Below are positions 8,433-32,988 of a stretch of 64,000 nt of DNA, piece after piece; position 1 is the first letter of the stretch; the number at the start of each line of letters is the position of its first letter. The notes below the pieces were generated by a model, which was not told the DNA's origin, did not search any database, and saw only the letters and a list, made by a program, of their open reading frames with translations. Source of the stretch: Escherichia phage vB_EcoM_Alf5. The stretch lies in sequence record KX377933. The stretch is one strand, 5' to 3'. A program made the position numbers and the translations under genes.

Positions 8433-8519
8433 TAAAGTACTTTACAGGGGGCTTAAAAGTTGATATCTTAAGCCCCAGATAAAGAGCTTTACCACTAAAT
8501 CCTAAATTGGAGAATCAAA

Positions 8520-10308: not shown

Positions 10309-10393
10309 AGTAATTTACAGGGGGCTTAAAAGTTGATATCTTAAGCCCCAGATAAAGAGCTTTACCACTAAATCCTAGACTGGAGATTCAAAA

Positions 10394-11889: not shown

Positions 11890-12420
11890 ATGAACAAGTT
11901 CAAAGCCATCAACTATATTCGTTCAAATGCTGTAATGTCAAAGCCTGTCAAAGATACCTACGAATTTCGCTGCAATGGTGTACACTTCGCAACCATCACC
12001 AAATCAGAAAACGGGGCTTATTACGTCCATCGTCGTAATGTTGCAACCGTTGTAGTCTCTCACTTTATGCAAGCTGTAGCAGAATTATTACCGCTATTTT
12101 TAGGGATTTACTTGGATGAGTGTAAAAACGTTCATAGCCACGTTAAAAACCTTTTAAATAGCTATAAAATGGCTTATGAGCGTTCAATCAAGACCTTAAA
12201 CAAGTTTTATAAAGCCCCTGTAAATACTGTTTCAATGGCTTACGCTTCAAACGGTGAAAGAGTAAACTTATCCGATGTGGAAGATATCGAGCTTTACGAC
12301 CATCGACCTAACGGTTACGCTAAAACCATCGGTGAAGGTTTAACGTTCAATATCAAGAACTTAGAAAAAACTTTAAAAGATATTGAAAAAGATATTGACG
12401 AGACAATCAAAAATCTGTAA
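11890..12420 (+). CDS. hypothetical early protein
   Basis: ATG at 11890 follows the conserved AGGAGATTCAAAA leader; the track start 11845 lies in the hairpin. Confidence 0.4.
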   Translation: MNKFKAINYIRSNAVMSKPVKDTYEFRCNGVHFATITKSENGAYYVHRRNVATVVVSHFMQAVAELLPLFLGIYLDECKNVHSHVKNLLNSYKMAYERSIKTLNKFYKAPVNTVSMAYASNGERVNLSDVEDIELYDHRPNGYAKTIGEGLTFNIKNLEKTLKDIEKDIDETIKNL

Positions 12421-12489
12421 ATTGTCAATCAACGGGGAGGGAATGAACTTCCCCACTAAAATAAAACCCTTAAACTAGGAGATTCAAAA

Positions 12490-12738
12490 ATGGCAACTAT
12501 CCGCGCTACTGTAAATGCTTATGGCTGTTATACTCTGGACGTTAAATTTGATATCGGCGGAACTGATGAATGCTTTTCCTTAGTGAAGACAGTTATCAAG
12601 CAAGTTATCCCAGACTATAACCCTACTGATGACTTCTGGAAAGATGCCGTAAAAGAGGCCATAAACGATGAGCATCACTATCATTACTGGGGTGATTTGA
12701 TTGTCTCCCTGTACTACAGCAAACAAGGTTACAACTAA
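12490..12738 (+). CDS. hypothetical early protein
   Basis: 82-aa ORF preceded by type-B hairpin-leader. Confidence 0.4.
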   Translation: MATIRATVNAYGCYTLDVKFDIGGTDECFSLVKTVIKQVIPDYNPTDDFWKDAVKEAINDEHHYHYWGDLIVSLYYSKQGYN

Positions 12739-12758
12739 TCGACGCAACGGGGCTATTT

Positions 12759-12802
12759 AGCCCCAGATACCTGAACAGACCCTACTCAAAGGGGCTTTTT
12801 TA
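12759..12802 (+). terminator. terminator with alternative upstream hairpin
   Basis: AGCCCC...GGGGCT stem followed by TTTTTT; upstream GGGGCT could pair with the same AGCCCC instead. Confidence 0.4.
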
Positions 12803-14389
12803 CGTCTATCGAATCCTTATACAACCCCTTTCCCTTTCCTTTCCAGAATCTTACTAGACCTTAAAAAGCAATAACTCTACAGTCTACTCTATAACCTCTT
12901 ATCAAATCAACTTAAATATAAGCCCATAACCCGAAAGGGAAGGGCAACCCCTTAAACGCTCTATAACGCCCTATAACAGCCTTATCACCCTAACTTAAGC
13001 AATCATATTAACCCACCCTAAAAAGCCCTTTATAAAGCTTCTGAGAGCCTTAAAAGAATCTTATAAGGGTGTAAGCTTATAGGCTGGCTAGTATCTTGTG
13101 AATGATTAAACAAACCCCTTGATAGCTATTAAAAAGCATGTTATAGGGGTTATAAAGTTACTTTGAAGTAGCTTAAAAGTTACGTAAATGCTAGCCCCCT
13201 TAACAATTTCTTAACAATTTCTTAACAATTTCTTAACAAACCTACATAGTTATTCTTGTTAGCACCTTGTTAAATCTCTGTTAAGACCACGTAAAAACCT
13301 TGTAAGAACCTTTGGCATAGCCTTAAAAGCTCCTGTAAAGCCCTATAAAGAGCTATCCATACAGTTGATGGGTAAATACTAGGGAGGGACTTAAAAGAGC
13401 CTATAAAGAGCTTTTAAGAGCTTTTAAGAGGTATGTTTAAGAAGTCACTAAGAAAGGAAAGGGAACGATAAGAAAAGAGTAGTGACCATGTTAATAGCTT
13501 GTTAAAAAGATTAAACACTTGTTAGGAACTTGTTAATTATCTTAACAAAATAACTCTTTAAAATTAACTTGTTAGCTCTTGTTAGTCATCTGTTAAGATT
13601 CTGTAAAGCCTATTCAGCACTTGTTAAGAATCTGTTACAGCCTTGTTAGTTCTGTTAAGAAACTGTTAAGACCTTTGAAGAGTTGTTAAGAAGATGTGAG
13701 AACTGTTAAGAAACTGTTAATGATATTTTAAAATTCTGCAAAGTACTTGTAAGGGAGCTGTTAAGGGCTACCAAGCAGATATACATCTTCTACAGATATT
13801 TTTCAGTTCCTTCAAAGACCCTAAAAAAAAAAAATGACTTGATAGTCCTATTTTATAAAAATTTTAAAATTCTGAATAATTACCTATACAGTCTTTTAAA
13901 AATACAGGTAGAAACAGGCTTATAAGATACCTTGTTAGTACCGTGTTAGACCTTGTGAGATAAGGTCTGTGAAGATATTCCTGTTAAGTTTGTTAAAACA
14001 GTCTATATAGAGGCTTAGTAATACCTAGTGAACACCTATAGAGAGTGTCATAGCTAACCTAGAGATTAAGAGGTGTATGGGAGCTTCTAAGAGAGTATAG
14101 AGAGATGGTTAAGGTGATTGTATAGGTTGTTTAGAAGGCTTGTTAGAGGGCTTGTTAGAAGGGTTATACAGAGGGCTATTAAGACCACTAGATAGTTACT
14201 AAGATACTATATAGTACTATATAACTATATAGAGAGTAAGATTAAGAAGGCTGTTAAGAAGGATAGATATTTTATTCACATATGATGGTGACCCAGAGGT
14301 TGGGACAACCGATAAAATTTTATAAAAATATAAATTTCGTAAATTTTACTCAATAAAAAGCCCCCAATTAAGGAGGCTCTTAAGATATT
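12803..14389. repeat. ORF-free iteron-rich region
   Basis: more than 30 copies of YTGTTAR, many CTTWWAAG palindromes, poly-A and AT-rich tract near 13826-13880; lies between convergent gene blocks. Confidence 0.6.
13199..13240. repeat. tandem repeat, 11-bp unit TTAACAATTTC, about 3.7 copies
   Basis: cttaacaatttcttaacaatttcttaacaatttcttaacaaa read directly. Confidence 0.7.
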
Positions 14390-15013
14390 TTAAATCAGTG
14401 TTTCCAGAACTGTTTTCAATGATGACTTGGTTGTCTGATAAAAATGAGTAAATCCATTGTTATTATCGAATACCTGCATCATGATATCATCACCCTTGAT
14501 TGGGTAAACTCGGATATCATAGTGAAAACCATTAAAGACACAAGAGCCATTACAGAATGCACTAAAGTCATCAACTGAGATATACTCTTCATGTCCTGTG
14601 ATTTTTATACAAACGCCTTTACTCGGTCTCTTAGGGTTGATATCTTCCATCACAGACATACTCTGTCCACCAAGAGATACCATAGTGACCACTTTACGGT
14701 TCTTCTGTCTAAAGTACATTTTAACTTTCTGCAAAGTGTCTTCATAGAACGGATAAGACCTTTCTACAAAGATTCCTTCAAGTGGCTCTTTACCATTTTC
14801 AACTTCTCTGTTATGCCGTACTGCAAAGATAATTTGTTCGAACCAGTCAAGATTTTCTTCGGAGAGTGCTTCTCGAACATCACTCCAGTCAAGTACTAGA
14901 TAGTTACCTTCAACATCTTTTAAGTTATCTTTTTCCATATCTATCACACCATTATCGTAAAACTTGATATTCTGGTACTGCGAATTTATTACTATTGTTC
15001 TTGATGAGGTCAT
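14390..15013 (-). CDS. hypothetical protein
   Basis: 207-aa ORF; in-frame Met at 14938 would avoid overlap with the upstream gene. Confidence 0.45.
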   Translation of the reverse strand: MTSSRTIVINSQYQNIKFYDNGVIDMEKDNLKDVEGNYLVLDWSDVREALSEENLDWFEQIIFAVRHNREVENGKEPLEGIFVERSYPFYEDTLQKVKMYFRQKNRKVVTMVSLGGQSMSVMEDINPKRPSKGVCIKITGHEEYISVDDFSAFCNGSCVFNGFHYDIRVYPIKGDDIMMQVFDNNNGFTHFYQTTKSSLKTVLETLI

Positions 15014-22021: not shown

Positions 22022-22060
22022 GTTGTTGACAAAGTACTTGACAAGGTATAGGCTTATAAA
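22022..22060 (+). promoter_or_regulatory. sigma70-like promoter
   Basis: aaaaagTTGTTGACA with downstream TATAGG/TATAAAT in divergent intergenic region. Confidence 0.4.
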
Positions 22061-22175
22061 TACTTAGAAGATAACTTAAAAGGTTCCTCTAAAAAGGCTA
22101 TTTAAACAGATATCTTTCTGGATATCTATCTTTTATCTTAAAAGCCTTTTAAGAGGTCTTATAAGAGGCATACCA

Positions 22176-24207: not shown

Positions 24208-24284
24208 CTCTGTTTAGCTCAGCTTGGTAGAGCGTTCCGTTTGGGGCGGTAAGGCCGGAGGTTCAAGTCCTCCAACAGAGACCA
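24208..24284 (+). tRNA. tRNA, anticodon TGG (Pro)
   Basis: 7-bp acceptor ctctgtt/aacagag, D-stem gctc/gagc, T-arm ggagg-ttcaagt-cctcc, encoded CCA. Confidence 0.55.
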
Positions 24285-24291
24285 AATTAAT

Positions 24292-24369
24292 GTTCCAGTA
24301 GACAAAATGGTAAAGTCACCACTCTTTCAAAGTGGATATTTGAGGGTTCAAATCCCTTCTGGAACGCCA
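24292..24369 (+). tRNA. tRNA, anticodon TTC (Glu)
   Basis: acceptor gttccag/ctggaac, anticodon arm ccact-ctttcaa-agtgg, T-loop ttcaaat, CCA. Confidence 0.6.
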
Positions 24370-24375
24370 GTTTTG

Positions 24376-24452
24376 ACAGAAGACCAATTACAGCAAACTT
24401 AATCTACTCATCTGACACGAAATCGGACAAAGAAGATATTTGGTCTGGTCAT
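24376..24452 (+). ncRNA. repeat module A: conserved stem-forming motif pair
   Basis: agaccaa (24381-87) pairs with ttggtct (24440-46); shared flanks acagaagacc and ggtctggt. Confidence 0.35.
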
Positions 24453-24459
24453 TAAGAAT

Positions 24460-24536
24460 TGCGGGTATAGAGAAAGGGCGTCTCACATGTCTCATTAGCA
24501 TGGTATCGGCAGGTTCGACTCCTGCACCCGCCTCCA
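24460..24536 (+). tRNA. tRNA, anticodon CAT (Met)
   Basis: D-stem gaga/tctc, anticodon arm catgt-ctcatta-gcatg, T-arm gcagg-ttcgact-cctgc; 1:72 appears unpaired. Confidence 0.5.
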
Positions 24537-24541
24537 AATTT

Positions 24542-24610
24542 ACAGAAGACCGTTTACAGCAATATTTATTAAATTTTTAGCGGAAAAATTGAAAGATACG
24601 GTCTGGTAAT
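24542..24610 (+). ncRNA. repeat module B
   Basis: agaccgt (24547-53) pairs with acggtct (24598-604); same acagaagacc...ttacagcaa / ggtctggt flanks. Confidence 0.35.
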
Positions 24611-24619
24611 ACTAAACAT

Positions 24620-24696
24620 GGTTAGGAAGCACATAAGGTATGTGCGGTCGCCTGTTAAGCGAATGGCACAGGGTTCGAATCCCTGACTAACCGCCA
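24620..24696 (+). tRNA. tRNA, anticodon GTT (Asn)
   Basis: D-stem gcac/gtgc, anticodon loop ctgttaa, T-arm caggg-ttcgaat-ccctg, CCA. Confidence 0.55.
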
Positions 24697-24765
24697 AATT
24701 TAGGAGAGAAGCGATTGCTCACCGATTTGTAAGGTGCAAGTCCTTAGCCTGAATAGAAATTAAAT

Positions 24766-24853
24766 GTGTCGTTATCCCGTAGATGGTAGCGGTGGGGACT
24801 GTAAATCCCTTGTCATTGAGACTCGGTAGGTTCGACTCCTACACGGCACACCA
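24766..24853 (+). tRNA. tRNA, anticodon GTA (Tyr), long variable arm
   Basis: acceptor gtgtcgt/acggcac, anticodon loop ctgtaaa, 15-nt variable arm, T-arm gtagg-ttcgact-cctac. Confidence 0.6.
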
Positions 24854-24858
24854 ATAAA

Positions 24859-24936
24859 GGTTATGTAGTTTAATTTGGTTAAAATACTCCCCTGTCACGG
24901 GAGATGATGAGGGTTCAAATCCCTTCGTAGCCGCCA
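24859..24936 (+). tRNA. tRNA, anticodon GTC (Asp)
   Basis: anticodon arm ctccc-ctgtcac-gggag, T-loop ttcaaat, CCA. Confidence 0.6.
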
Positions 24937-24963
24937 ATTTTGAGAGGACTATTTAGCCCCTCC

Positions 24964-24995
24964 CTTAAAGAGTTCTTACGAGTATTCTTTAAAGG
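24964..24995 (+). promoter_or_regulatory. hairpin with conserved loop GTTCTTACGAGTAT
   Basis: cttaaagag-gttcttacgagtat-tctttaaag; a second copy with the same loop occurs at 28346-28377. Confidence 0.4.
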
Positions 24996-24996
24996 A

Positions 24997-25072
24997 GCAG
25001 AAGACCAAATTCAGCAAGAACGTATGAAATTTCAAGCCAATTTAATTTTGAAAATTTAAACTTGGTCTGGCT
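24997..25072 (+). ncRNA. repeat module C
   Basis: agaccaa (25002-08) pairs with ttggtct (25062-68); degenerate copy of modules A/B. Confidence 0.3.
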
Positions 25073-25081
25073 CAACAAATT

Positions 25082-25218
25082 TACAGAAGACCGTTTACAG
25101 CAAAACTTAAACAATCTATTTCTCCGGTAAAGAAAAGGCGAAGGTTCGATTCCTTCACTCGGCAGATGTCGAGTTGGTGTAATGGTAGCACTTAAGATGA
25201 TAAACAACGGTCTGGTAA
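25082..25218 (+). ncRNA. candidate Y RNA-like ncRNA with permuted tRNA-like domain
   Basis: 8-bp stem agaccgtt (25088-95) / aacggtct (25206-13) encloses T-arm gaagg-ttcgatt-ccttc, hairpin actcggc-agat-gtcgagt and D-arm gtgt-aatggta-gcac. Confidence 0.45.
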
Positions 25219-25358
25219 TTATCTTTGTAGATAAGTTATTAAGCTTACCTGTGAGTATGCGACCACAAAGGGTGAAAGGGTAAATTCTAGATTTAAACCC
25301 AAAAAGGCACATCGCTACAGACCTTAAGCAAGTCTGGGTAGCTTATCTACAAAGATAA
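25219..25358 (+). repeat. 17-bp perfect inverted repeat enclosing ~105 nt
   Basis: ttatctttgtagataag (25219-35) and cttatctacaaagataa (25342-58) are exact reverse complements. Confidence 0.6.
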
Positions 25359-25364
25359 TTTAAT

Positions 25365-25440
25365 GGAAGTGTAGCAGAATGGTGATGCGGCAGACTTTTA
25401 ATCTGACAGGCGATGGGTTCGAATCCCTCCACTTCTACCA
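25365..25440 (+). tRNA. tRNA, anticodon TTT (Lys)
   Basis: acceptor ggaagtg/cacttct, anticodon arm (g)caga-cttttaa-tctg, T-loop ttcgaat, CCA. Confidence 0.5.
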
Positions 25441-25444
25441 ATAT

Positions 25445-25521
25445 GGTTCAGTCGCAGATAAGGTAATGCAAGGGTCTCATAAGCCCTATGAATGTGGGTT
25501 CGATTCCCATCTGAACCTCCA
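25445..25521 (+). tRNA. tRNA, anticodon CAT (Met or Ile2)
   Basis: acceptor ggttcag/ctgaacc, anticodon arm agggt-ctcataa-gccct, T-loop ttcgatt, CCA. Confidence 0.5.
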
Positions 25522-25598
25522 AGCTGGTATAGTTAAGAAGGTTATAACACTCCCCTGATAAGGGAACATCGGTGGTTCGATTCCACCTACCAGTACCA
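25522..25598 (+). tRNA. tRNA, anticodon GAT (Ile)
   Basis: D-stem gtta/taac, anticodon loop ctgataa, T-arm ggtgg-ttcgatt-ccacc, CCA. Confidence 0.55.
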
Positions 25599-25606
25599 AT
25601 TTCAAT

Positions 25607-25645
25607 AAAGTTGTTGACATTGAGATGTGACTACTTTATAGTAAC
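25607..25645 (+). promoter_or_regulatory. sigma70-like promoter inside tRNA island
   Basis: aaagTTGTTGACA, 17-bp spacer, TATAGT. Confidence 0.45.
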
Positions 25646-25846
25646 CTTAGTTTTCGTTGCGTAGCGTCTATTTTGCAAATTTAAAATAAATGCAAACGAC
25701 AATGTTTTTCTGGCAGTAGCTTGATAGGCTAAACACCAGTGAGGTCTTCCAATCCCTCATCAAAGAATTTGGCGTACTAGCCCACGGTATGATTAATAAG
25801 GTGGGCATCTTTAAGGGCTTTCTAAGAGAGTCTTTAAAGATAATTA

Positions 25847-25928
25847 CGGGGCGTATCTCAGCGGTCTTCTAAACCGCCGTTAACCGAGTAAGTGGAGTAT
25901 GCGGGTTCGAGTCCTGCCGCCTCGACCA
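25847..25928 (+). tRNA. atypical tRNA-like element, anticodon-like loop TCT (Arg?)
   Basis: 7-bp acceptor cggggcg/cgcctcg and T-arm present, perfect hairpin gcggt-cttctaa-accgc, but no canonical D-arm; 23 nt before T-arm. Confidence 0.3.
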
Positions 25929-25942
25929 ATTTTGGAGAAATC

Positions 25943-26290
25943 ATGAAAACTTGTATTAGGTGCAAACTTAGCAAGGATGAAAATGATTTCTACATGAAAG
26001 ATGGTAGGAGGACTCATTCATACTGTAAAAAGTGTGTTAATGAGCAAACCATAGAAAGACAAAGAGCACTTAAACTCTCAGCTATTGAGTACAAAGGTGG
26101 GGTTTGTCATGATTGTGGTAAAAAGTATCATCCAGCAGTGTATGACTTCCATCATTTGAATCCTTCAGATAAAGATTTTAACATTGGTCATAGGAAAAGC
26201 CTTAAGTTCTCTCAAGAACTAAAAGATGAACTTGACAAATGTGTTTTGCTATGTTCAAATTGCCATAGGGTAAGACATGCAAAGTATTAG
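25943..26290 (+). CDS. HNH homing endonuclease
   Basis: CxxC...HHLNPSDKDFNIGH...CSNCH motifs; ATG at 25943 with GGAG RBS; track start 25892 lies inside the tRNA-like element. Confidence 0.65.
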   Translation: MKTCIRCKLSKDENDFYMKDGRRTHSYCKKCVNEQTIERQRALKLSAIEYKGGVCHDCGKKYHPAVYDFHHLNPSDKDFNIGHRKSLKFSQELKDELDKCVLLCSNCHRVRHAKY

Positions 26291-26427
26291 TTAGCAGATT
26301 ACTTAGACGACCTTAGCGGGTCTTCCTGTAGGGAGGTGGTCTGTATCTCATGTTTTCCAGAACATGTAAATAATCTGAGAAGGGGCTTTACAGTGTTGAG
26401 ATAATACGGTAAGCTTCGAATTATAGT

Positions 26428-26510
26428 ATGGGACGATGTTAAGACTCTAAGGCATGAGCAACGGCCTCCAAAACCGTTTCAAAGGGGTTCAACTCCTCCG
26501 TCCCATGCCA
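26428..26510 (+). tRNA. atypical tRNA, anticodon CCA (Trp?) with ~7 extra nt between acceptor and D-arm
   Basis: perfect acceptor atgggac/gtcccat, anticodon arm acggc-ctccaaa-accgt, T-loop ttcaact, CCA. Confidence 0.4.
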
Positions 26511-26523
26511 AAGTCTTATTAGG

Positions 26524-26611
26524 GGTAGGTAGCGGCTAATGGTAGCCAAACTGTCTTGAAAACAGTTGCCACTGTAGAGATACGGTGAGGGTTCGACTCC
26601 TTTACTTACCG
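26524..26611 (+). tRNA. tRNA, anticodon TGA (Ser), long variable arm
   Basis: anticodon arm actgt-cttgaaa-acagt, ~20-nt variable arm, T-arm gaggg-ttcgact-ccttt; no encoded CCA. Confidence 0.55.
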
Positions 26612-26868
26612 CCTAATAAGATTTAAAGCCAAGCTTCATTCGGATGTCGCTTTGGTATCCCGCGTGTATTGTCGTACACACTGATAAAACACCTAGTAGG
26701 TGTCACGGAGAAGAGATAATATCAAGCTCTCCAAAGGTTCTAGTCACCGGATTAAACAAGACTATGCAAAGACCTTTTTAGGTCTTTTTAGAGGGCTTCT
26801 AAGGTTATTACAGCTTGTTGTGGAACCTTGTTGCTTAGGTTCTTAGAAGTTCTCTAAAAAGATTTAAT

Positions 26869-26946
26869 GGGAGATTGACGGTAATTGGTAAACCTACCAT
26901 CCTTAGAAGTTGGTGTTTGAGGGTTCGAATCCCTTGTCTCCTACCA
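26869..26946 (+). tRNA. class-I tRNA, anticodon TAG (Leu by anticodon)
   Basis: acceptor gggagat/gtctcct, anticodon arm ccatc-cttagaa-gttgg, 5-nt variable loop, T-loop ttcgaat, A73, CCA. Confidence 0.45.
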
Positions 26947-26953
26947 AATTAAT

Positions 26954-27029
26954 GCAGGTGTAGCAAAATGGTTATGCGGCTGACTCTTAATCAGTAAGAC
27001 GACGGGTTCAATTCCCTCCACCTGTACCA
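26954..27029 (+). tRNA. tRNA, anticodon CTT (Lys)
   Basis: anticodon arm (g)ctga-ctcttaa-tcag(t), T-loop ttcaatt, CCA. Confidence 0.5.
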
Positions 27030-27034
27030 AAAAT

Positions 27035-27110
27035 GGGGTCATAGTTTATATGGTTAAAATTCGAGTTTTGCAAACTTGGGAACTGAGTTCAATTCTCAGT
27101 GACTCCACCA
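27035..27110 (+). tRNA. tRNA, anticodon TGC (Ala)
   Basis: acceptor ggggtca/tgactcc, anticodon arm cgagt-tttgcaa-acttg, T-arm ctgag-ttcaatt-ctcag, CCA. Confidence 0.6.
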
Positions 27111-27116
27111 ATTAGT

Positions 27117-27191
27117 GCATCCATAGTTTAAACGGGAAAATTACAGTCTTCCAAACTGAGGTTGAGGGTTCGATTCCCTCTGGATGCTCCA
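27117..27191 (+). tRNA. tRNA, anticodon TCC (Gly)
   Basis: perfect acceptor gcatcca/tggatgc, anticodon loop cttccaa, T-arm gaggg-ttcgatt-ccctc, CCA. Confidence 0.55.
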
Positions 27192-27197
27192 AATTAA

Positions 27198-27274
27198 TGC
27201 TCCTATCGTATAATCGGCTATTACGGTTGCCTTGTAAGCAACTTATCAGGGTTCGAATCCTTGTGGGAGCACCA
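27198..27274 (+). tRNA. tRNA, anticodon TGT (Thr)
   Basis: anticodon arm gttgc-cttgtaa-gcaac, T-loop ttcgaat, CCA. Confidence 0.6.
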
Positions 27275-27275
27275 A

Positions 27276-27368
27276 TTCAGAGGTCAAGTGAAAGACCGCT
27301 GGTGTCAACTGAAGACCGTAACAAATTCCACGGAGTTGAGTTAGCGGCACAACTTCAGACCTCTTTCA
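27276..27368 (+). ncRNA. structured non-tRNA spacer with paired repeat segments
   Basis: agaggtc/gacctct and ctgaag/cttcag complementarities; two GAAGACCG motifs. Confidence 0.3.
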
Positions 27369-27369
27369 C

Positions 27370-27444
27370 ACTCGCTTAGTTTATATGGTAAAACATCACC
27401 CTTACAAGATGAAGAAAAAGGTTCAAGTCCTTTAGTGAGTACCA
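27370..27444 (+). tRNA. tRNA, anticodon TAC (Val)
   Basis: D-stem gttt/aaac, anticodon arm tcacc-cttacaa-gatga (one mismatch), T-arm aaagg-ttcaagt-ccttt, CCA. Confidence 0.55.
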
Positions 27445-27445
27445 T

Positions 27446-27523
27446 GTTCCAGTATCCCAATTGGCAGAGGATGCAAGCTCAAACCTTGTATTAGTGACGG
27501 TTCGAATCCGTCTTGGAACACCA
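27446..27523 (+). tRNA. class-I tRNA, anticodon CAA (Leu by anticodon)
   Basis: acceptor gttccag/ttggaac, anticodon arm gcaag-ctcaaac-cttgt, short variable loop, T-arm gacgg-ttcgaat-ccgtc, A73, CCA. Confidence 0.5.
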
Positions 27524-27541
27524 ATTTAAAGAGGCTATTTA

Positions 27542-28099
27542 ATGAGATATTTGAAGTACGCTTCATGGATTTTCTTAGCTTTACTAGACCCAATTGCAGC
27601 AATCCTAGCAGTTATTTTAGCACCTTTCGTAGTTCCATTCTACAGTGAGAAGAAAGGACATCTACCTTTTGGATTCAGATGGATGGAGACATATGACAAC
27701 CCAATTGATGGTGATGAAGGTCACGTTAAAAGATGGGCTAAGATTAGAAAGATTGGTAAGCTGGGTGTCTACATGCAGAGAGTCGGATGGCTCTGGAGAA
27801 ACAAAGCTTATAACTTCTCTTACCATGTATTAGGAAGAGATGTAAAAGATGTTACTAAGTGGAAAGGTAATATCAACGTAAGTTCTGACCCCGAAGATAA
27901 TCAGACAGGTTATCTCCTAATGTGGAACAACAATGCTTGGGGATTATTCGCTTTTATTCCGTCAATTAAAGTCTTTGGTAAACAGTTTTACTGGAGAATT
28001 TATGTTGGATGGAAACTAAAAAGTGTTGTCCCAGAAGAAAGAGCATTCTCAAGGGAAAGAGTTATGTTGGCATTCTTTATTCATCCACTGAGAAAGTAA
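27542..28099 (+). CDS. hypothetical membrane protein inside tRNA island
   Basis: 185-aa ORF; N-terminal hydrophobic segment IFLALLDPIAAILAVILAPFVVPF; Trp-rich; AGAGG RBS. Confidence 0.5.
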   Translation: MRYLKYASWIFLALLDPIAAILAVILAPFVVPFYSEKKGHLPFGFRWMETYDNPIDGDEGHVKRWAKIRKIGKLGVYMQRVGWLWRNKAYNFSYHVLGRDVKDVTKWKGNINVSSDPEDNQTGYLLMWNNNAWGLFAFIPSIKVFGKQFYWRIYVGWKLKSVVPEERAFSRERVMLAFFIHPLRK

Positions 28100-28107
28100 A
28101 GATTTAA

Positions 28108-28183
28108 AGGGGATTAGTTTACAAGGTTAAAACCTCGGTCTTTGAAATCGAAGAAGTTGGTTCAATTCCAACATCCCCCGCCA
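28108..28183 (+). tRNA. tRNA, anticodon TTG (Gln)
   Basis: D-stem gttt/aaac, anticodon arm tcggt-ctttgaa-atcga, T-arm gttgg-ttcaatt-ccaac, CCA; 1:72 A-C mismatch. Confidence 0.55.
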
Positions 28184-28185
28184 AT

Positions 28186-28264
28186 GCTCCATTACTCCAA
28201 TTGGCAGAGAGGCCAGACTTAAAATCTGTGTTATGTATCGGTTCGAATCCGATATGGAGTACCA
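28186..28264 (+). tRNA. class-I tRNA, anticodon TAA (Leu by anticodon)
   Basis: acceptor gctccat/atggagt, anticodon arm (c)caga-cttaaaa-tctg, T-arm atcgg-ttcgaat-ccgat, A73, CCA. Confidence 0.45.
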
Positions 28265-28269
28265 ATTTT

Positions 28270-28345
28270 AGCGGTATAGCATAACTGGCAATGCAGCAGT
28301 CTCTGAAGCTGTCCTATTAAGGTTCAAATCCTTATGCCGCTGCCA
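28270..28345 (+). tRNA. tRNA, anticodon CTG (Gln)
   Basis: D-stem gcat/atgc, anticodon arm gcagt-ctctgaa-gctgt, T-arm taagg-ttcaaat-cctta, CCA. Confidence 0.55.
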
Positions 28346-28377
28346 CTTCTAAGGGTTCTTACGAGAATCCTTAAATG
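28346..28377 (+). promoter_or_regulatory. second copy of hairpin with loop GTTCTTACGAGAAT
   Basis: ctaagg-gttcttacgagaat-ccttaa directly after tRNA 3' end. Confidence 0.4.
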
Positions 28378-28452
28378 TGGCCTTATCATAAATGGTAATG
28401 ACCCATGCTGTGAACATGGTCTATACGGGTTCGACTCCCGTAGGTCACCCCA
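28377..28452 (+). tRNA. tRNA, anticodon GTG (His)
   Basis: anticodon arm ccatg-ctgtgaa-catgg, T-arm acggg-ttcgact-cccgt, C73, CCA. Confidence 0.6.
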
Positions 28453-28457
28453 ATTTA

Positions 28458-28534
28458 TAGTCCAAGTAGCTTATATGGTTAAAGCGCGTGTCTGAAAAAC
28501 ATGAGAAGAGGGTTCAAATCCCACTGGACTACCA
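28458..28534 (+). tRNA. tRNA, anticodon GAA (Phe)
   Basis: D-stem gctt/aagc, anticodon arm cgtgt-ctgaaaa-acatg, T-loop ttcaaat; acceptor register ambiguous by 2 nt. Confidence 0.5.
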
Positions 28535-28550
28535 ATTTCAAAGGTGCTTA

Positions 28551-29285
28551 ATGAAAGAGATGACAGAACAAGGTAAGGAGATTTTTAATCTCTTAAAAAC
28601 CGGTAAAGGGTTTTCTAACCCACTTATTACTGGTGCAGCAGTTCTCGGTGGAACCGTAGCTGCCTCTACATCACTTGTAAGCTCTATTAGCTCTGTAACA
28701 GACCCTACAATGAAGGAGAAGCTTGTTGCTGCTGGACTTACAACAGTCCTTCTAAACAGCTTTACAACAAGCCTGACAAGCACTACAGCAACTACTAAGA
28801 CCCTAACAGACTATGGTCAAAAGTCTATTGATGAGTTTTCATCACGTATGCAGGTAGCAAAGGGTTATTCCAATGTTATGGGTGCAGCAGGAGAACAAGT
28901 TGGTTGTACACCATTCAGTGGTATTATGGGTGTTGCTACAGAGTATGGTCAAAAAGCTATTGACATGATTAACAGCACACTAGACAGTGTTAACGGTGTG
29001 TTAAGTGACTTACAAGACGCTATTGATAAGGGTCTTGATACTGTTTCTGATTTAGCTAATCAGGCTGTTAGTAAGATTAATGAAGGTATCTCAAAGATTA
29101 CAGCTTATGCAGATGAAGTTGTGCAGATGATTGAAGAAGAAGCTGCCCTTATTACAGAGTACCTTAAAACTAATATCAATGGGTTCTTAGCAGGTATCTT
29201 ACCAGACTGGTTTGATGATGCTTGTAAAACTGGTGTGATTGATACTATTGCAACACCAGAAATGAAGAGCGCATTACAGAAATAA
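28551..29285 (+). CDS. hypothetical Ser/Thr-rich protein inside tRNA island
   Basis: ATG at 28551 after AAAGG RBS; track start 28488 lies inside the preceding tRNA. Confidence 0.5.
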   Translation: MKEMTEQGKEIFNLLKTGKGFSNPLITGAAVLGGTVAASTSLVSSISSVTDPTMKEKLVAAGLTTVLLNSFTTSLTSTTATTKTLTDYGQKSIDEFSSRMQVAKGYSNVMGAAGEQVGCTPFSGIMGVATEYGQKAIDMINSTLDSVNGVLSDLQDAIDKGLDTVSDLANQAVSKINEGISKITAYADEVVQMIEEEAALITEYLKTNINGFLAGILPDWFDDACKTGVIDTIATPEMKSALQK

Positions 29286-29286
29286 C

Positions 29287-29379
29287 GGAAGATTAACCCT
29301 AAAAGGTAAGGGAGCAGTTTGCTAAACTGCCAGTAGCTGAGAAATCGGTGTACCAGTTCAAGTCTGGTATCTTCCTCCA
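29287..29379 (+). tRNA. tRNA, anticodon GCT (Ser), long variable arm
   Basis: perfect acceptor ggaagat/atcttcc, anticodon arm gcagt-ttgctaa-actgc, ~21-nt variable arm, T-arm accag-ttcaagt-ctggt, CCA. Confidence 0.6.
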
Positions 29380-29383
29380 ATTT

Positions 29384-29459
29384 GAATCCGTGACAGAAAT
29401 GGATATGTGCCTGTCTGCAAAACAGGTTTATAAGGGTTCAAGTCCCTTCGGATTCTCCA
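29384..29459 (+). tRNA. tRNA, anticodon GCA (Cys)
   Basis: perfect acceptor gaatccg/cggattc, anticodon arm cctgt-ctgcaaa-acagg, T-arm aaggg-ttcaagt-ccctt, CCA. Confidence 0.6.
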
Positions 29460-29681: not shown

Positions 29682-29882
29682 ATGAGTGAGACCGTTTATA
29701 AAGAACTTTATGAAGCTAACAAGAAGTTAGAGTTTATGCAGAATACTATCATGGCAATTGCAGACAGACTATCTGTAGCAACAGGTATTGATATTAAAGA
29801 AGCATCTATGGATGCACTTCTTGATGCTGTTGATGCAAAGTTCGAAGTTAAGAAAGAAGAGACTGCTACAGACTCTGAATAA
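29682..29882 (+). CDS. small hypothetical protein upstream of terminase
   Basis: 66-aa ORF with GGAG RBS; too small to call small terminase confidently. Confidence 0.35.
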   Translation: MSETVYKELYEANKKLEFMQNTIMAIADRLSVATGIDIKEASMDALLDAVDAKFEVKKEETATDSE

Positions 29883-29903
29883 TTCTATTTGCGGAGGCGC
29901 TTA

Positions 29904-31505
29904 ATGGACTTAAATGCTGTTAAGCAGAAGCGAGTGGAAGATGTTAGGAAAGTCCTAGCTGGAGAGTTGGGGCTTTCTGATGAAGTAAAAGAAATTATTA
30001 AATCATTCGGTAAAGACCCCTCTAAATTCCTTCCAACTCAAATTCTGACTTTATTAAGATACACACCAGACCAAGTTCGCCTCATCTTTAAATTGATGAC
30101 TGATAAGAACTATGTAGCACCTCAACCGGGTTCTCAAGAGGTCTTTTTAAATACTAATGCTGACTTGGTTCTCTATGGTGGTGCTGCTGGTGCTGGTAAA
30201 ACTGCCGCATTGTTAATGGACTCTTTAAGATTTATTGAAGACCCTAACTATAATGCTGTATATTTCCGTCGAAATACAACACAGTTACAAGGTGGTTTAT
30301 GGCCTGCTGCAAAGAAACTATTTGGTAAGTTTGGTGGGATTCCTCACGAGCAGAAAATGACTATCACATTCCCTTCTGGGGCGACTATCAAGTTTACCTA
30401 TCTAGAACTTGAAAAGCACGCTGAAGGTCATCAGGGTATTGAATACTCAGCTATTTACTTTGACGAAGGTACACACTTCTCTGCTTCACAGATTTCATAC
30501 CTACAAACTCGTCTACGTTCTGGTGCTGAAGGTGATTCATACATGAAGATTTCCATGAACCCAGATAGAGACCACTTTATTTACGATTGGGTAGAACCAT
30601 TCTTAGATGAAGAAGGTTACCCAGACCCTGAAAAGTGTGGTCGTATTCGTTGGTATGTAATGAATGATGGTGTGATGGTTTCTGATTGGGAGAGAGACAA
30701 GATTCTTGAAATGTTCCCTCTTGAGATTCCTCAAACATACACCTTCATCTCTGGTACGATTGATGATAACCCAATTCTTGACTTCTTAGAGCCAAAGTAT
30801 CGCGGTAAGCTTGAAAACAACACTCCTGTAAACGTTGCAAGACTTCGTTTCGGTAACTGGAAGGCTCGTGCAGAAGGTTCAAACTATTGGCAAAGACAAT
30901 GGTGTGAGATTGTTGATTCACTCCCAGAAGATGTATTTGATGTTAGAGCATGGGACTTAGCAGCAACTTTACCATCTGAGGTTAACCCTAATCCAGACTG
31001 GACAGCAGGTGTTAAGATGGGTAAATCTAAAAAAGACGGTTGCTATTATATCATTGATGTAGTAAGATTTAGAGATAGACCCTCTGGAGTCGAAACACAA
31101 ATTAATTTGACTGCTGAAAGTGACGGTAAGCGAACTGGTATTTTTATCCCTCAAGACCCAGGCGCTGCTGGTAAATCCTACGCAACATCCCTCATCAGGA
31201 AACTTGCCGAGAAAGGCTATCGTGCAAGAGCTAAACCAACAAATAAAGATAAAGTTACCCGCTTTGCGGGATTTTCTGCTGCTTCTGAAGCTGGACTTGT
31301 AAAAGTCTTGAGAGGTAGTTGGAATGAAGCTTACTTTCAAGAGCTTGAAGGCTTTTGTGGTGATGGCAAAACTAAAGATGACCAAGTGGATGCTACCAGT
31401 GATGCTTTCAACAGTCTTAACGAAGTTAAATTATTCAAGCCACCATCAATGGGTGCTCACACAGACTTAGTGAGAGGAAATCCATATGAGGGGCTTAGAC
31501 GTTGA
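29904..31505 (+). CDS. terminase large subunit
   Basis: Walker A LYGGAAGAGKT; ATG at 29904 after GGAGG RBS (track start 29889 is a TTG). Confidence 0.85.
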   Translation: MDLNAVKQKRVEDVRKVLAGELGLSDEVKEIIKSFGKDPSKFLPTQILTLLRYTPDQVRLIFKLMTDKNYVAPQPGSQEVFLNTNADLVLYGGAAGAGKTAALLMDSLRFIEDPNYNAVYFRRNTTQLQGGLWPAAKKLFGKFGGIPHEQKMTITFPSGATIKFTYLELEKHAEGHQGIEYSAIYFDEGTHFSASQISYLQTRLRSGAEGDSYMKISMNPDRDHFIYDWVEPFLDEEGYPDPEKCGRIRWYVMNDGVMVSDWERDKILEMFPLEIPQTYTFISGTIDDNPILDFLEPKYRGKLENNTPVNVARLRFGNWKARAEGSNYWQRQWCEIVDSLPEDVFDVRAWDLAATLPSEVNPNPDWTAGVKMGKSKKDGCYYIIDVVRFRDRPSGVETQINLTAESDGKRTGIFIPQDPGAAGKSYATSLIRKLAEKGYRARAKPTNKDKVTRFAGFSAASEAGLVKVLRGSWNEAYFQELEGFCGDGKTKDDQVDATSDAFNSLNEVKLFKPPSMGAHTDLVRGNPYEGLRR

Positions 31506-31512
31506 TAGCTAG

Positions 31513-32988
31513 GTGAGAAGAATGGCAGATATTACAGAAACACAAGAAAGCTTACCACCATTTAGAATGGGTGAAGTAGGTTCTTTGGGTCTGAAGGTTA
31601 AGAATGGAAGAATCTATGAAGAACCTCGTCAGGCACTAAGGTTCCCTGAAAGTATTAAAACTTTCCAATTAATGATGCGTGACCCTGCTGTAGCAGCATC
31701 TGTAAATATTATTAAGATGTTTGTCAGAAAAGTCAACTGGAGATTCGTACCTCCAAAGGGAAAAGAGCAAGACCCTAAAATGCTTGAAAGAGCAGACTTC
31801 TTTAATTCTTTAATGGATGACATGGAGCATGATTGGGCAGATTTTATTAATTCTGTAATGTCATTCTGCACTTATGGGTTCTGTGTTAACGAGAAAGTTT
31901 ATAAGAAGCGACAGGGTAAAAAAGGAAAGTACCAGTCAAAATTTGATGATGGTCTAATTGGATGGGCTAAATTACCAATCAGAAACCAATCAACACTTGA
32001 TAAGTGGTATTTTGATGAAGACTTTAGAAAAGTTACTGGTGTCAGACAAAATCTGAGAAATGTTTCACATATTGCTGGAGCAATTAATCTTGGAGAGAGA
32101 CCATTAACAAGAAAACTTCCACGAGCTAAATTCATGCTGTTTAAGTATGATGATGAATATGGAAACCCAGAAGGTCGTTCACCATTACTTAATGCTTATG
32201 TACCGTGGAAATATAAAGTACAAATTGAAGAGTATGAAGCTGTTGGTGTTTCAAGAGACTTGGTAGGTATGCCAAAGATTGGTTTACCACCTGACTATCT
32301 GGATGAAAATGCAGAACCTGAAAAGAAAGCTTTCGTACAATACTGCAAAACTGTTGTTAACGATATGATTGCTAATGACAGAGCAGGTTTAATCTGGCCT
32401 AGATATATCGACCCAGATACTAAAGAGGATATTTTTGAGTTCTCATTAGTTTCTAGACAGGGTGCTAAAGCATATGACACAGGTTCTATTATTGACAGAT
32501 ACTCCAAGCAGATTATGATGGCATTCATGTCAGATATTCTTGCTATGGGTCAGTCAAAATACGGTTCATTCTCTCTTGCAGATTCTAAGACAAGCTTATT
32601 GGCGATGTCAGTAGATATCCTGCTGAAGCAAATTAAGAACGTAATTAACCGTGATTTAGTTGCACAGACTTATGCTCTTAATATGTGGGACGATGAAGAA
32701 CATGTGCAAATCACATATGATGATATCGAAACTCCAGACCTTGAAGCAATTGGTTCTTATATTCAAAAGACTGTTGCAGTAGGTGCTTTGGAAGTTGACA
32801 AAGAGCTATCTAACAAGCTTAGAGAGCATATTGGTCTTCCTCCTGCTGATGAGTCTCAACCAGTATCTGAAAAGCTTTCTCCAAATAGCCAAAGCCGCTC
32901 AGGAGATGGTTATAAGACCGCTGGAGAAGGTACTGCAAAGACACCTTCAGCGAAAGACCCAAGCACAGCAAATAAGGCAAATAAATAA
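31513..32988 (+). CDS. portal protein
   Basis: 491-aa ORF immediately downstream of terminase; assigned by position and size. Confidence 0.65.
   Translation: MRRMADITETQESLPPFRMGEVGSLGLKVKNGRIYEEPRQALRFPESIKTFQLMMRDPAVAASVNIIKMFVRKVNWRFVPPKGKEQDPKMLERADFFNSLMDDMEHDWADFINSVMSFCTYGFCVNEKVYKKRQGKKGKYQSKFDDGLIGWAKLPIRNQSTLDKWYFDEDFRKVTGVRQNLRNVSHIAGAINLGERPLTRKLPRAKFMLFKYDDEYGNPEGRSPLLNAYVPWKYKVQIEEYEAVGVSRDLVGMPKIGLPPDYLDENAEPEKKAFVQYCKTVVNDMIANDRAGLIWPRYIDPDTKEDIFEFSLVSRQGAKAYDTGSIIDRYSKQIMMAFMSDILAMGQSKYGSFSLADSKTSLLAMSVDILLKQIKNVINRDLVAQTYALNMWDDEEHVQITYDDIETPDLEAIGSYIQKTVAVGALEVDKELSNKLREHIGLPPADESQPVSEKLSPNSQSRSGDGYKTAGEGTAKTPSAKDPSTANKANK

What the first reader, a model, noticed from the sequence alone, without database searches (positions are those of the whole stretch)
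12803..14389. 1.6-kb ORF-free iteron field between convergent gene blocks
The region has no credible ORF but more than 30 copies of YTGTTAR, a tandem 11-bp repeat at 13199-13240, many CTTWWAAG palindromes, an 11-nt poly-A and an AT-rich tract (13826-13880). Iterons next to an unwinding-prone tract are the architecture of a replication origin or a regulator/partition binding array; so large a non-coding region is unusual in a compact phage genome.
Basis: seen in the sequence. Interest (0 to 1): 0.7.

Follow-up and report, generated by a model that had tools for sequence, protein, structure and literature searches.

The report
Felix O1-type phage terminal-repeat region
The 1.6-kb gene-free, repeat-filled stretch is where the packaged chromosome of a Felix O1-like phage begins and ends (a roughly 580-bp direct terminal repeat plus its flanks), which has already been mapped in close relatives, so it is real and conserved but largely ordinary.

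Summary
Window 12739-14389 is the largest ORF-free gap in the window. It holds 28 YTGTTAR copies (about 1.6 expected), an 11-bp tandem repeat and the most AT-rich tract of the 64 kb.

The window is a Felixounavirus (Felix O1-like myovirus) genome, and the gap is conserved in more than 250 phage records.

The middle of the gap, 13194-13772 (579 bp), is the short direct terminal repeat (DTR) of the virion DNA:
- Four independent GenBank records begin with GCCCCCTTAACA (window 13194) and end with GTTAAGGGCTACC (window 13772). Three of them carry the whole repeat at both ends (581, 591 and 613 bp).
- The DTR of phage UAB_Phi87, determined by Bal31 digestion and run-off sequencing, maps to about 13202-13774.
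- Erwinia phage M7, from another genus, has a 444-bp DTR in the same gap, with the same boundary sequences and the same TGTTAAGA arrays.

So this is the concatemer junction, where terminase cuts and the repeat is duplicated. It resembles the T7 terminal repeat with its CCTAAAG heptamer arrays.

The repeats sit about one helical turn apart and are probably the protein-binding array that marks the junction. This is inferred, and the binding protein is unknown. A replication origin is neither supported nor excluded. The feature is already known, and interest is low to moderate.

The parts
12490..12738 (+). Last gene (82 aa, unknown function) of the + strand block. It is the gene nearest the right end of the virion chromosome.
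   Evidence: ORF list; phrog_4559, unknown function; no Pfam domain.
12749..12802 (+). Terminator zone closing the + strand block: hairpin GGGGCTATTTAGCCCC, then AAAGGGGCTTTTTT.
   Evidence: Read directly from the sequence. Terminators are annotated at the equivalent position in phages Tribble and AYO145A. The simple scan did not call it.
12803..13193 (.). Left flank: unique non-coding DNA that adjoins the right-end copy of the repeat in the virion. It is rich in CTTAAAAG / CTATAAC / CTTATAAG-type short repeats and has no YTGTTAR copy.
   Evidence: It is 83-94% conserved in Felixounavirus loci and 72-90% identical to Mooglevirus Michonne over 12840-13139.
13180..13205 (+). Left boundary sequence TTACGTAAATGCTA|GCCCCCTTAACA, the presumed terminase nick or cut site. 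Record ends fall at 13194, and the run-off end of UAB_Phi87 falls at about 13202.
   Evidence: Four records start with GCCCCCTTAACA. The motif TTACG..TAGCC(C/A)C(C/T)TT(A/T)ACA is conserved in Michonne and Erwinia phage M7. The UAB_Phi87 DTR starts with AACATTTTCTTAACAA.
13194..13772 (.). Direct terminal repeat (579 bp). It is present once per unit in the concatemer and at both ends of the packaged DNA.
   Evidence: Homologous to the annotated 581-bp DTR of Pr103Blw and to the exact terminal duplications of 613 bp in SPJ41 and 591 bp in ZX4221. Ro111lw starts at the same base. The experimentally sequenced DTR of UAB_Phi87 aligns to 13213-13774.
13199..13239 (-). 11-bp tandem repeat (CTTAACAATTT x 3.7), giving four minus-strand TTGTTAAG copies at the left edge of the DTR. 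Copy number varies among relatives.
   Evidence: TRF; motif search. Conservation dips at 13190-13239 because of indels. Erwinia phage M7 also has minus-strand copies at the left edge of its DTR.
13254..13765 (+). Array of 17 plus-strand YTGTTAR copies (core TGTTAAGA), mostly spaced at 10-11 bp or multiples of that. CTTAAAAG/CTATAAAG/CTTTTAAG-type repeats lie between them at 13322-13430.
   Evidence: Spacing and phase coherence: R about 0.5 at 10.25-10.5 bp, with 15 of 18 short spacings near multiples of 10.4 bp. The deepest cross-genus conservation is at 13490-13790.
13758..13784 (+). Right boundary sequence CTGTTAAGGGCTACC|AAGCAGATATAC, the presumed nick or cut site on the other strand. Record ends fall at 13772, and the run-off end of UAB_Phi87 at 13774.
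   Evidence: GGC(T/C)AC(C/T)AAG(C/T)AGATATACA is conserved in Erwinia phage M7.
13773..14360 (.). Right flank: unique non-coding DNA next to the left-end copy of the repeat. It holds a 12-A run (13823-13834), the most AT-rich tract of the window (13826-13880), six more YTGTTAR copies, a 12-bp tandem repeat (14131-14162) and TATAGAGAG / CTATATAG repeats.
   Evidence: Positions 13840-14290 are 92-99% conserved within the genus.
14361..14375 (-). Intrinsic terminator closing the minus-strand gene block.
   Evidence: Terminator scan. A terminator is annotated at the same place in AYO145A.
14390..15013 (-). Last gene (207 aa, unknown function) of the minus-strand block. It is the gene nearest the left end of the virion chromosome.
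   Evidence: phrog_4330, unknown function; no Pfam domain.
29889..31505 (+). Large terminase subunit, the enzyme expected to act on the junction. No small subunit is recognisable.
   Evidence: phrog_979, E = 8e-234. At least 99% identical in 204 Felixounavirus records. The neighbouring small ORFs have unknown function.

Best explanation
The region is the concatemer junction of a Felix O1-like (Felixounavirus) myovirus.

Its central 579 bp (13194-13772, to within 2-8 nt) is the short, exact, non-permuted direct terminal repeat (DTR). It occurs once between genome units in replicating concatemers and at both ends of every packaged chromosome.

Shown here:
- the repeat and both boundaries are homologous to ends determined experimentally and by PhageTerm in relatives;
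- both boundary sequences are conserved across three genera;
- TGTTAAGA-type repeats are strongly enriched, spaced about one helical turn apart, and conserved across genera;
- terminators on both sides insulate the region from convergent transcription.

Inferred, by analogy with T7-type DTR phages:
- Terminase (large subunit at 29889-31505) is directed to the junction. It nicks opposite strands at the two boundary sequences about 579 bp apart. Strand-displacement synthesis then duplicates the repeat, so both neighbouring genomes leave with a copy.
- After injection, the repeats let replicated linear molecules anneal or recombine into concatemers.
- The phased TGTTAAGA array is most likely the binding array for a still unidentified recognition factor, such as a small-terminase-like or end-binding protein, that bends or wraps the DNA and positions the cuts. 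Minus-strand copies sit at the left edge and plus-strand copies run through to the right edge.
For: Identity of the genome and locus: Felixounavirus, with 255-259 phage records matching at 76-94% identity.

Record ends:
- Pr103Blw, Ro111lw and ZX4221 start with GCCCCCTTAACA, which is window 13194. SPJ41 is deposited in the opposite orientation and its far end corresponds to the same base.
- Pr103Blw, ZX4221 and SPJ41 (on the other strand) end with GTTAAGGGCTACC, which is window 13772.
- Exact terminal duplications are 581, 591 and 613 bp.
- Pr103Blw annotates these as a 'short direct terminal repeat region', from PhageTerm. Ro111lw has a 613-bp DTR by PhageTerm.
- Other records or contigs break near the left boundary: BPS15Q2, Seyj1-1, NBEco004, SPT-1 and an IMG/VR contig.

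Experiment: UAB_Phi87 was analysed by Bal31 digestion and run-off sequencing and has a 608-bp DTR. Its published sequence runs AACATTTTCTTAACAA...GGGCTACCAA and aligns to window 13213-13774.

Cross-genus evidence:
- Erwinia phage M7 has an exact 444-bp DTR in the syntenic gap.
- TGTTAAGA is its top 8-mer.
- Its boundary sequences are conserved.

Arrays: enrichment and helical phasing.

Conservation: equal to the coding flanks and deepest in the right half of the DTR.

Precedent: T7 has a 160-bp DTR with CCTAAAG heptamer arrays inside and beside it.

Terminase: the TerL is orthologous to those of the DTR phages.
Against: - No reads or virion DNA of this particular phage were available, so its ends are assigned by homology only.
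- Exact cut positions differ by 2-8 nt between methods and records.
- In-silico SpeI terminal fragments of UAB_Phi87 are 2751 and 4431 bp, against 2819 and 4322 bp in the paper. The 70-110 bp difference is unexplained.
- Within the genus, motif positions are no better conserved than the spacers between them (p = 0.36).
- No binding protein and no small terminase subunit could be identified.
- The nick-and-fill mechanism and the packaging role of the arrays rest on analogy with T7, not on tests.
Confidence: 0.85

Rival explanations
1. Replication origin. The short repeats would be iterons for a phage initiator, and the AT-rich tract at 13826-13880 would be the unwinding element. This could hold instead of, or in addition to, the terminal-repeat function.
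For: - The direct repeats are dense, phased and oriented.
- The most AT-rich 55-mer of the window lies 54-108 bp beyond the right DTR boundary.
- The right flank is 92-99% conserved.
- In T7 the end regions carry the promoters named phiOL and phiOR. From my own knowledge, these are associated with secondary origins.
Against: - There is no DnaA-box cluster, only a single 8/9 match, and no IHF consensus site.
- No recognisable initiator lies among the ten flanking proteins.
- The repeat core is 7-8 bp, not the 17-22 bp of classical iterons.
- Genes converge on the region, so forks leaving it would run head-on into transcription on both sides.
- Cumulative GC skew is at a local maximum here, and its local minimum is at the divergent region near 22 kb.
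- The documented property of the locus, the chromosome ends, already accounts for its conservation.
Confidence: 0.15
2. Transcriptional regulatory array or non-coding RNA locus. The repeats would bind a phage regulator that controls the flanking gene blocks, or the region would encode an sRNA.
For: CTTAAAAG / CTTTTAAGAGG-type repeats also cluster at the divergent promoter region 22040-22170. Eleven weak sigma-70-like matches were found against 6.1 expected.
Against: - Both flanking blocks are transcribed towards the region and end in terminators, so there is nothing downstream to regulate.
- All the promoter-like matches are minimal, at 9 of 12 positions.
- No Rfam family matches, with the best E-value at 0.41.
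- TGTTAAGA is not enriched at promoters elsewhere in the window.
Confidence: 0.05
3. DNA-entry control signal analogous to the injection-stop signal in the T5 terminal repeat. The repeat-rich end region would pause or regulate genome ejection.
For: The region lies at the chromosome ends and is a repeat- and palindrome-rich ORF-free stretch. From my own knowledge, the T5 first-step-transfer stop region is described in the same terms.
Against: No two-step transfer is known for Felix O1-like phages. The repeat is 0.58 kb and gene-free, whereas the T5 repeat is about 10 kb and carries pre-early genes. Nothing tested here bears on ejection.
Confidence: 0.04
4. Functionless repeat expansion: slippage-generated simple DNA tolerated between convergent genes.
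For: Copy number of the 11-bp and 12-bp tandem repeats varies among relatives.
Against: - The region is as conserved as coding DNA across more than 20 loci.
- Identity to another genus is 58-90% across most of the gap.
- The motif, its orientation pattern and the boundary sequences persist in Erwinia phage M7, where the rest no longer aligns.
Confidence: 0.02

Closest known systems
Direct terminal repeats of Felixounavirus phages UAB_Phi87 (608 bp, Bal31 and run-off sequencing), Pr103Blw (581 bp) and Ro111lw (613 bp), the latter two by PhageTerm
   Same: This is the orthologous locus. It has the same flanking genes, the same boundary sequences (GCCCCCTTAACA ... GTTAAGGGCTACC) and the same internal repeats, at 79-94% identity.
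   Different: The window's record is opened elsewhere, so the repeat is internal and present once. The window has one more copy of the 11-bp tandem unit. The ends of this particular phage have not been measured.
Terminal repeat of Erwinia phage vB_EamM-M7 (Kolesnikvirus, Ounavirinae)
   Same: The DTR lies in the syntenic ORF-free gap between convergent blocks. TGTTAAGA is the dominant 8-mer. Minus-strand copies sit at the left edge, followed by plus-strand copies. Both boundary sequences are conserved.
   Different: The repeat is 444 bp. The left flank uses a different repeat, TCTTCTAA(A/G). Overall the DNA no longer aligns, apart from a single 74-bp BLAST match. The record ends lie 2 nt further out on each side.
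Phage T7 concatemer junction: 160-bp terminal repeat with the SRL/SRR heptamer arrays (Dunn and Studier 1983, cited from memory; the sequence itself was checked)
   Same: It is a short, exact, non-permuted DTR in ORF-free DNA. A short heptamer (CCTAAAG) is repeated inside the repeat and in arrays just beside it: 15 copies in the left 420 bp, mostly at 13-bp spacing. The junction is processed by terminase, with duplication of the repeat.
   Different: The phage family is unrelated (Autographiviridae podovirus) and there is no sequence similarity. The motif differs. The repeat is 160 bp rather than 579 bp. In T7, transcription runs through the junction and promoters (phiOL, phiOR, A0-A3) sit next to it, whereas here the junction is insulated by convergent terminators.
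Lambda cosB and SPP1 pac recognition arrays, which are small-terminase binding sites (from my own knowledge)
   Same: Multiple short, helically phased repeats lie next to the terminase cut site and act as a protein-binding and DNA-bending array.
   Different: Those systems produce cohesive ends or headful-permuted ends, and their small subunit is known. Here no small subunit is recognisable and binding has not been tested.
Iteron-type origins (lambda ori, plasmid oriV)
   Same: Clustered direct repeats lie next to an AT-rich tract.
   Different: No initiator gene, DnaA boxes or IHF site was found. The repeat unit is much shorter. Gene orientation converges on the region.

Membership tests
Short exact direct terminal repeat (T7-type 'short DTR') genome ends, as documented for Felixounavirus | Sequence orthologous to a terminal repeat determined in relatives | tested here: met
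   Window 13194-13772 matches Pr103Blw 6-581 within its annotated DTR (annotation). The sequenced DTR of UAB_Phi87 aligns to 13213-13774.
Short exact direct terminal repeat (T7-type 'short DTR') genome ends, as documented for Felixounavirus | Both boundary (cut-site) sequences present and conserved | tested here: met
   GCCCCCTTAACA lies at 13194 and GTTAAGGGCTACC ends at 13772, identical to the ends of four records. Both are conserved in Michonne and M7.
Short exact direct terminal repeat (T7-type 'short DTR') genome ends, as documented for Felixounavirus | The same sequence physically present at both ends of this phage's virion DNA, with unique non-permuted ends | not testable with these tools
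   This needs reads (PhageTerm), run-off sequencing or Bal31 digestion on virion DNA. It has been shown only for relatives.
Short exact direct terminal repeat (T7-type 'short DTR') genome ends, as documented for Felixounavirus | Large terminase orthologous to those of phages with this end type | tested here: met
   TerL at 29889-31505 matches phrog_979. It is at least 99% identical in 204 Felixounavirus records and 69% identical to Erwinia Kolesnikvirus. The paper places this TerL clade in a DTR group.
T7-like terminal-repeat region with heptamer arrays (SRL/SRR) | Arrays of a short repeat inside and immediately beside the terminal repeat, in ORF-free DNA | tested here: met
   Of the YTGTTAR copies, 22 lie in the DTR and 6 in the right flank. 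T7 has 15 CCTAAAG-type copies in its first 420 bp.
T7-like terminal-repeat region with heptamer arrays (SRL/SRR) | Sequence or evolutionary relatedness to the T7 element | tested here: not met
   BLAST hits go almost entirely to Ounavirinae hosts (Escherichia, Salmonella, Shigella, Citrobacter, Erwinia), plus a few generically named records. The motif differs. The relationship is an analogy, not membership.
Iteron-type replication origin | Repeats of iteron size (about 17-22 bp) in direct orientation | tested here: not met
   The conserved core is 7-8 bp at 10-11-bp spacing, and the orientation inverts at the left edge of the DTR.
Iteron-type replication origin | Initiator (Rep-like) gene adjacent, or host-factor sites (DnaA boxes, IHF) | tested here: not met
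   None of the ten flanking proteins has a Pfam domain, and the flanking proteins scanned against PHROGs are all of unknown function. There is one 8/9 DnaA-box match and no cluster, and no IHF consensus site in the region. Proteins of unknown function cannot be excluded as initiators.
Iteron-type replication origin | AT-rich unwinding element | tested here: met
   13826-13880 has 14.5% GC, the lowest of any 55-mer in the window.
Iteron-type replication origin | Origin activity (initiation mapped to the site) | not testable with these tools
   This needs marker-frequency or 2D-gel data. GC skew only follows gene orientation.
Partition site (parS-type centromere array) | Cognate ParA/ParB-type genes and a plasmid-like lifestyle | tested here: not met
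   No Par-like domain was found in the flanking proteins. The genome is a virulent Felix O1-like myovirus.
T5-type long terminal repeat with injection-stop signal | A repeat of several kilobases carrying pre-early genes, with two-step DNA transfer | tested here: not met
   The repeat is 579 bp and gene-free. Two-step transfer was not testable here.

The most novel reading that the evidence does not exclude
The helically phased TGTTAAGA arrays and the two conserved boundary sequences are shared by at least three Ounavirinae genera, including one whose DNA otherwise no longer aligns. They could be the recognition system of a still unidentified packaging-specificity or end-binding protein; no small terminase subunit is recognisable in these phages. 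The nearly invariant AT-rich right flank (13840-14290) could be a second cis element, such as a priming or origin site used to duplicate the repeat. I found no description of these arrays in the papers I searched.
Probability: 0.35. Interest if true: 0.45.

Novelty: already known. Interest (0 to 1): 0.25.

Why it matters
Knowing that 13194-13772 is the terminal repeat fixes the true left and right ends of this genome. Most Felix O1-like GenBank records are opened arbitrarily at rIIA and hide the ends inside an unannotated gap.

This matters for correct genome maps, for rebooting or engineering these phages, which are widely used for typing, biocontrol and therapy, and for studying their packaging.

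The open part is modest but real. The cis signals (boundary motifs and phased TGTTAAGA arrays) are now defined precisely enough to test which protein recognises them in a phage group with no identified small terminase subunit.

Tried and rejected
- Rfam scan of 12400-14700 found nothing significant.
- The sigma-70 promoter scan gave only minimal 9-of-12 matches.
- DnaA-box and IHF consensus searches showed no cluster.
- GATC clustering as an origin signature is meaningless here, because GATC is absent from the whole window.
- The two small ORFs in the gap are broken in relatives and were rejected as genes.
- PHROG and Pfam scans of the flanking proteins and the ORFs next to TerL, looking for a DNA-binding, initiator or small-terminase candidate, found only proteins of unknown function.
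- A phylogenetic footprint within the genus failed: motif positions are no more conserved than spacers, because divergence is too low.
- DNA folding gave a weak hairpin at the left boundary (z = -2.5, -8 kcal/mol) and nothing at the right boundary. I did not build on this.
- A scan of viral contigs with the 14-mer TGTTAAGGGCTACC returned many hits on contigs of quite different lengths, most of them probably chance matches, and the output gives no contig-end coordinates, so it was not useful.
- The terminal overlap in the NJ12 record is 127 bp, which I take to be an assembler k-mer artefact rather than a DTR.
- The SpeI fragment check on UAB_Phi87 agrees only to within 70-110 bp.
- Paper searches found no published description of this gap as an origin.
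Full report
**What the window is.** The query region 12739-14389 matches 255-259 records in the phage collection at 76-94% identity. These are Felix O1, wV8 and many other Felixounavirus phages, plus Mooglevirus phages of Shigella and Citrobacter. There is also one short match in Erwinia Kolesnikvirus phages. In almost all records nothing is annotated under the match, apart from a terminator, short 'repeat_region' features or doubtful small ORFs. The window is therefore a Felix O1-like myovirus genome opened, as is conventional, near rIIA. It contains the large terminase gene (29889-31505), the portal gene (31513-32988) and 24 tRNA genes.

**Checking the observation.**
- The gap is real. It is the largest stretch of the window without an ORF of at least 60 aa in any frame, at 1651 bp. 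The runners-up are tRNA clusters.
- The two ORFs of 33-34 aa inside it are frameshifted or interrupted in many relatives.
- YTGTTAR occurs 28 times between 13200 and 14257, against about one per kb elsewhere.
- The longer core TGTTAAGA occurs 12 times here. It occurs 23 times in the window, where 5 are expected.
- The 11-bp tandem repeat is at 13199-13239, with 3.7 perfect copies.
- CTTWWAAG occurs 8 times, and only two copies are true palindromes.
- The poly-A run is 12 nt (13823-13834). The tract 13826-13880, at 14.5% GC, is the most AT-rich 55-mer of the 64 kb.
- The gap lies between convergent gene blocks that end in terminators.

**What it is.** The first clue was that several GenBank records begin or end inside this gap, always at the same places.
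- Pr103Blw, Ro111lw and ZX4221 start with GCCCCCTTAACA, which is window 13194. SPJ41, deposited in the opposite orientation, reaches the same base at its far end.
- Pr103Blw, ZX4221 and SPJ41 end, on the appropriate strand, with GTTAAGGGCTACC, which is window 13772. They carry exact duplications of 581, 591 and 613 bp at their two ends.
- Pr103Blw annotates these as a 'short direct terminal repeat region'. Its paper reports a 581-bp DTR from PhageTerm (PMC8303462). Ro111lw has a 613-bp DTR by PhageTerm (PMC6454146).
- For UAB_Phi87 the ends were determined experimentally. Bal31 digestion removed two SpeI fragments, and run-off sequencing defined a 608-bp DTR (PMC4837284).
- The DTR sequence printed in that paper's supplement runs 5'-AACATTTTCTTAACAA ... 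GATGTTAAGGGCTACCAA-3'. It aligns to window 13213-13774, or 13202 by register in the tandem array.
- The ends thus agree among methods to within 8 nt on the left and 2 nt on the right.
- One discrepancy remains. In-silico SpeI terminal fragments from the GenBank record are 2751 and 4431 bp, against the published 2819 and 4322 bp. This places the ends in this gap but is off by 70-110 bp. The cause is possibly a different sequence version.

**Deep conservation.** Erwinia phage M7 belongs to a different genus, and its DNA aligns with the window over only 74 bp. Its record has an exact 444-bp duplication at its two ends, in the syntenic ORF-free gap between convergent blocks.
- TGTTAAGA is again the most frequent 8-mer, with 12 copies.
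- The copies near the left edge of the repeat are again on the minus strand, and those further right are on the plus strand.
- Both boundaries are conserved among the window, Michonne (Mooglevirus) and M7. The left boundary is TTACG..TAGCC(C/A)C(C/T)TT(A/T)ACA and the right is GGC(T/C)AC(C/T)AAG(C/T)AGATATACA.
- Within Felixounavirus the gap is conserved as well as the flanking genes, at 83-98% per 100 bp, with 13840-14290 at 92-99%.
- Against M7 the best-conserved part is the right half of the repeat, 13490-13790.
- Within the genus, motif positions are no better conserved than spacers. Divergence is too low for footprinting.

**Anatomy.**
- Left flank, 12803-13193: it has CTTAAAAG / CTATAAC-type repeats and no YTGTTAR copy.
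- DTR, 13194-13772: four minus-strand TTGTTAAG copies in the 11-bp tandem at its left edge, then 17 plus-strand copies. Successive copies are mostly 10-11 bp, or multiples of that, apart. Fifteen of 18 short spacings fit, and phase coherence R is about 0.5 at 10.25-10.5 bp. The copies therefore lie on one face of the helix.
- Right flank, 13773-14360: the A12 run, the AT-rich tract, six more copies and further short tandem repeats.

**How it most likely works.** The identity as a terminal repeat is shown by orthology to measured ends. The mechanism is inferred from T7-type DTR phages.
- Terminase acts on concatemers that carry one copy of the repeat per junction.
- Nicks on opposite strands at the two boundary sequences, followed by strand-displacement synthesis, give each neighbouring genome its own copy.
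- After infection, the repeats allow concatemer formation.
- The phased repeats are best read as the binding and bending array for a recognition factor. None could be identified. No small terminase subunit is recognisable, and the flanking proteins have no known domains.

**Comparison with what is known.** T7 offers the closest mechanistic parallel. Its 160-bp repeat and the DNA just beside it carry arrays of the heptamer CCTAAAG, with 15 copies in the first 420 bp. The promoters named phiOL and phiOR sit next to its ends. The two elements are not related in sequence, and here the junction is transcriptionally insulated rather than transcribed through.

**The origin hypothesis.** Only the AT-rich tract and the mere presence of repeats support it. 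Several things count against it:
- there is no DnaA-box cluster and no IHF site;
- there is no recognisable initiator gene;
- the repeat unit is much shorter than classical iterons;
- genes converge on the site;
- cumulative GC skew has a local maximum here.

It cannot be excluded as an additional function. By analogy with the T7 end-associated secondary origins (from my own knowledge), the conserved AT-rich right flank is the place to look.

**Verdict.** The feature is the terminal-repeat and concatemer-junction region, already known for this genus. What appears undescribed in the papers I could search is the internal grammar, meaning the phased TGTTAAGA arrays and boundary motifs shared across Ounavirinae genera. 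Interest is low to moderate.

Noticed in passing
window 1-64000: GATC is completely absent: 0 sites against 182 +/- 12 expected. This has already been reported for the genus. The VpaE1 and Alf5 papers note that there is no MboI site.
   Followed up: yes
window 22040-22170: A second small cluster of the CTTAAAAG / CTTTTAAGAGG / CTTATAAGAGG repeats seen inside the DTR (13390-13430). It lies in the divergent intergenic region next to tandem TTGACA promoter-like hexamers, just upstream of the ATG at 22176. It could be a shared regulator-binding motif. This divergent region is also where cumulative GC skew reaches its local minimum.
   Followed up: partly
window about 8438-8497 and about 10311-10370: Two copies of a direct repeat of about 57 bp containing a hairpin: CTTTACAGGGGGCTTAAAAGTTGATATCTTAAGCCCCAGATAAAGAGCTTTACCACT. 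It corresponds to the 57-bp intergenic repeats described in the Felix O1 genome paper, and its loop carries the CTTAAAAG motif.
   Followed up: partly
window 29682-29882 and 29889-31505: The large terminase ORF starts at a TTG codon, and its PHROG match begins at profile position 81. A 66-aa ORF of unknown function (phrog_4397) ends 7 bp upstream. No small terminase subunit is recognisable, so this small ORF is an untested candidate partner.
   Followed up: partly
L017/L018 (Erwinia phage M7, NC_041978.1 ends): The terminal duplication in the M7 record extends 2 nt further out at both boundaries than the Felixounavirus record ends. The run-off right end of UAB_Phi87 agrees with M7 (+2), while its left end is 8 nt further in. 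The exact cut positions, and any overhang, therefore remain unresolved.
   Followed up: partly
L042 (UAB_Phi87, JN225449.1 12000-21000): Predicted terminal SpeI fragments are 2751 and 4431 bp, against the published Bal31-sensitive fragments of 2819 and 4322 bp. The repeat in the record is 614 bp against 608 bp in the paper, and the record is 87,603 bp against 87,669 bp in the paper. These small inconsistencies are unexplained.
   Followed up: partly
L014/L015 (Salmonella phage NJ12, OQ845959.1) and L004/L005 (BPS15Q2, KX405003.1): The NJ12 record has a 127-bp identical overlap at its ends, which is the size of an assembler k-mer and does not lie at the DTR boundaries. BPS15Q2 is opened 14 nt before the left boundary, with no duplication. 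Many 'complete' Felixounavirus records therefore do not represent the physical ends.
   Followed up: yes
window 53370-53383: A run of 14 T, the only other homopolymer of at least 9 nt in the window.
   Followed up: no
window 24208-29459: A cluster of 24 tRNA genes on the + strand, as is typical of Felix O1-like phages.
   Followed up: no
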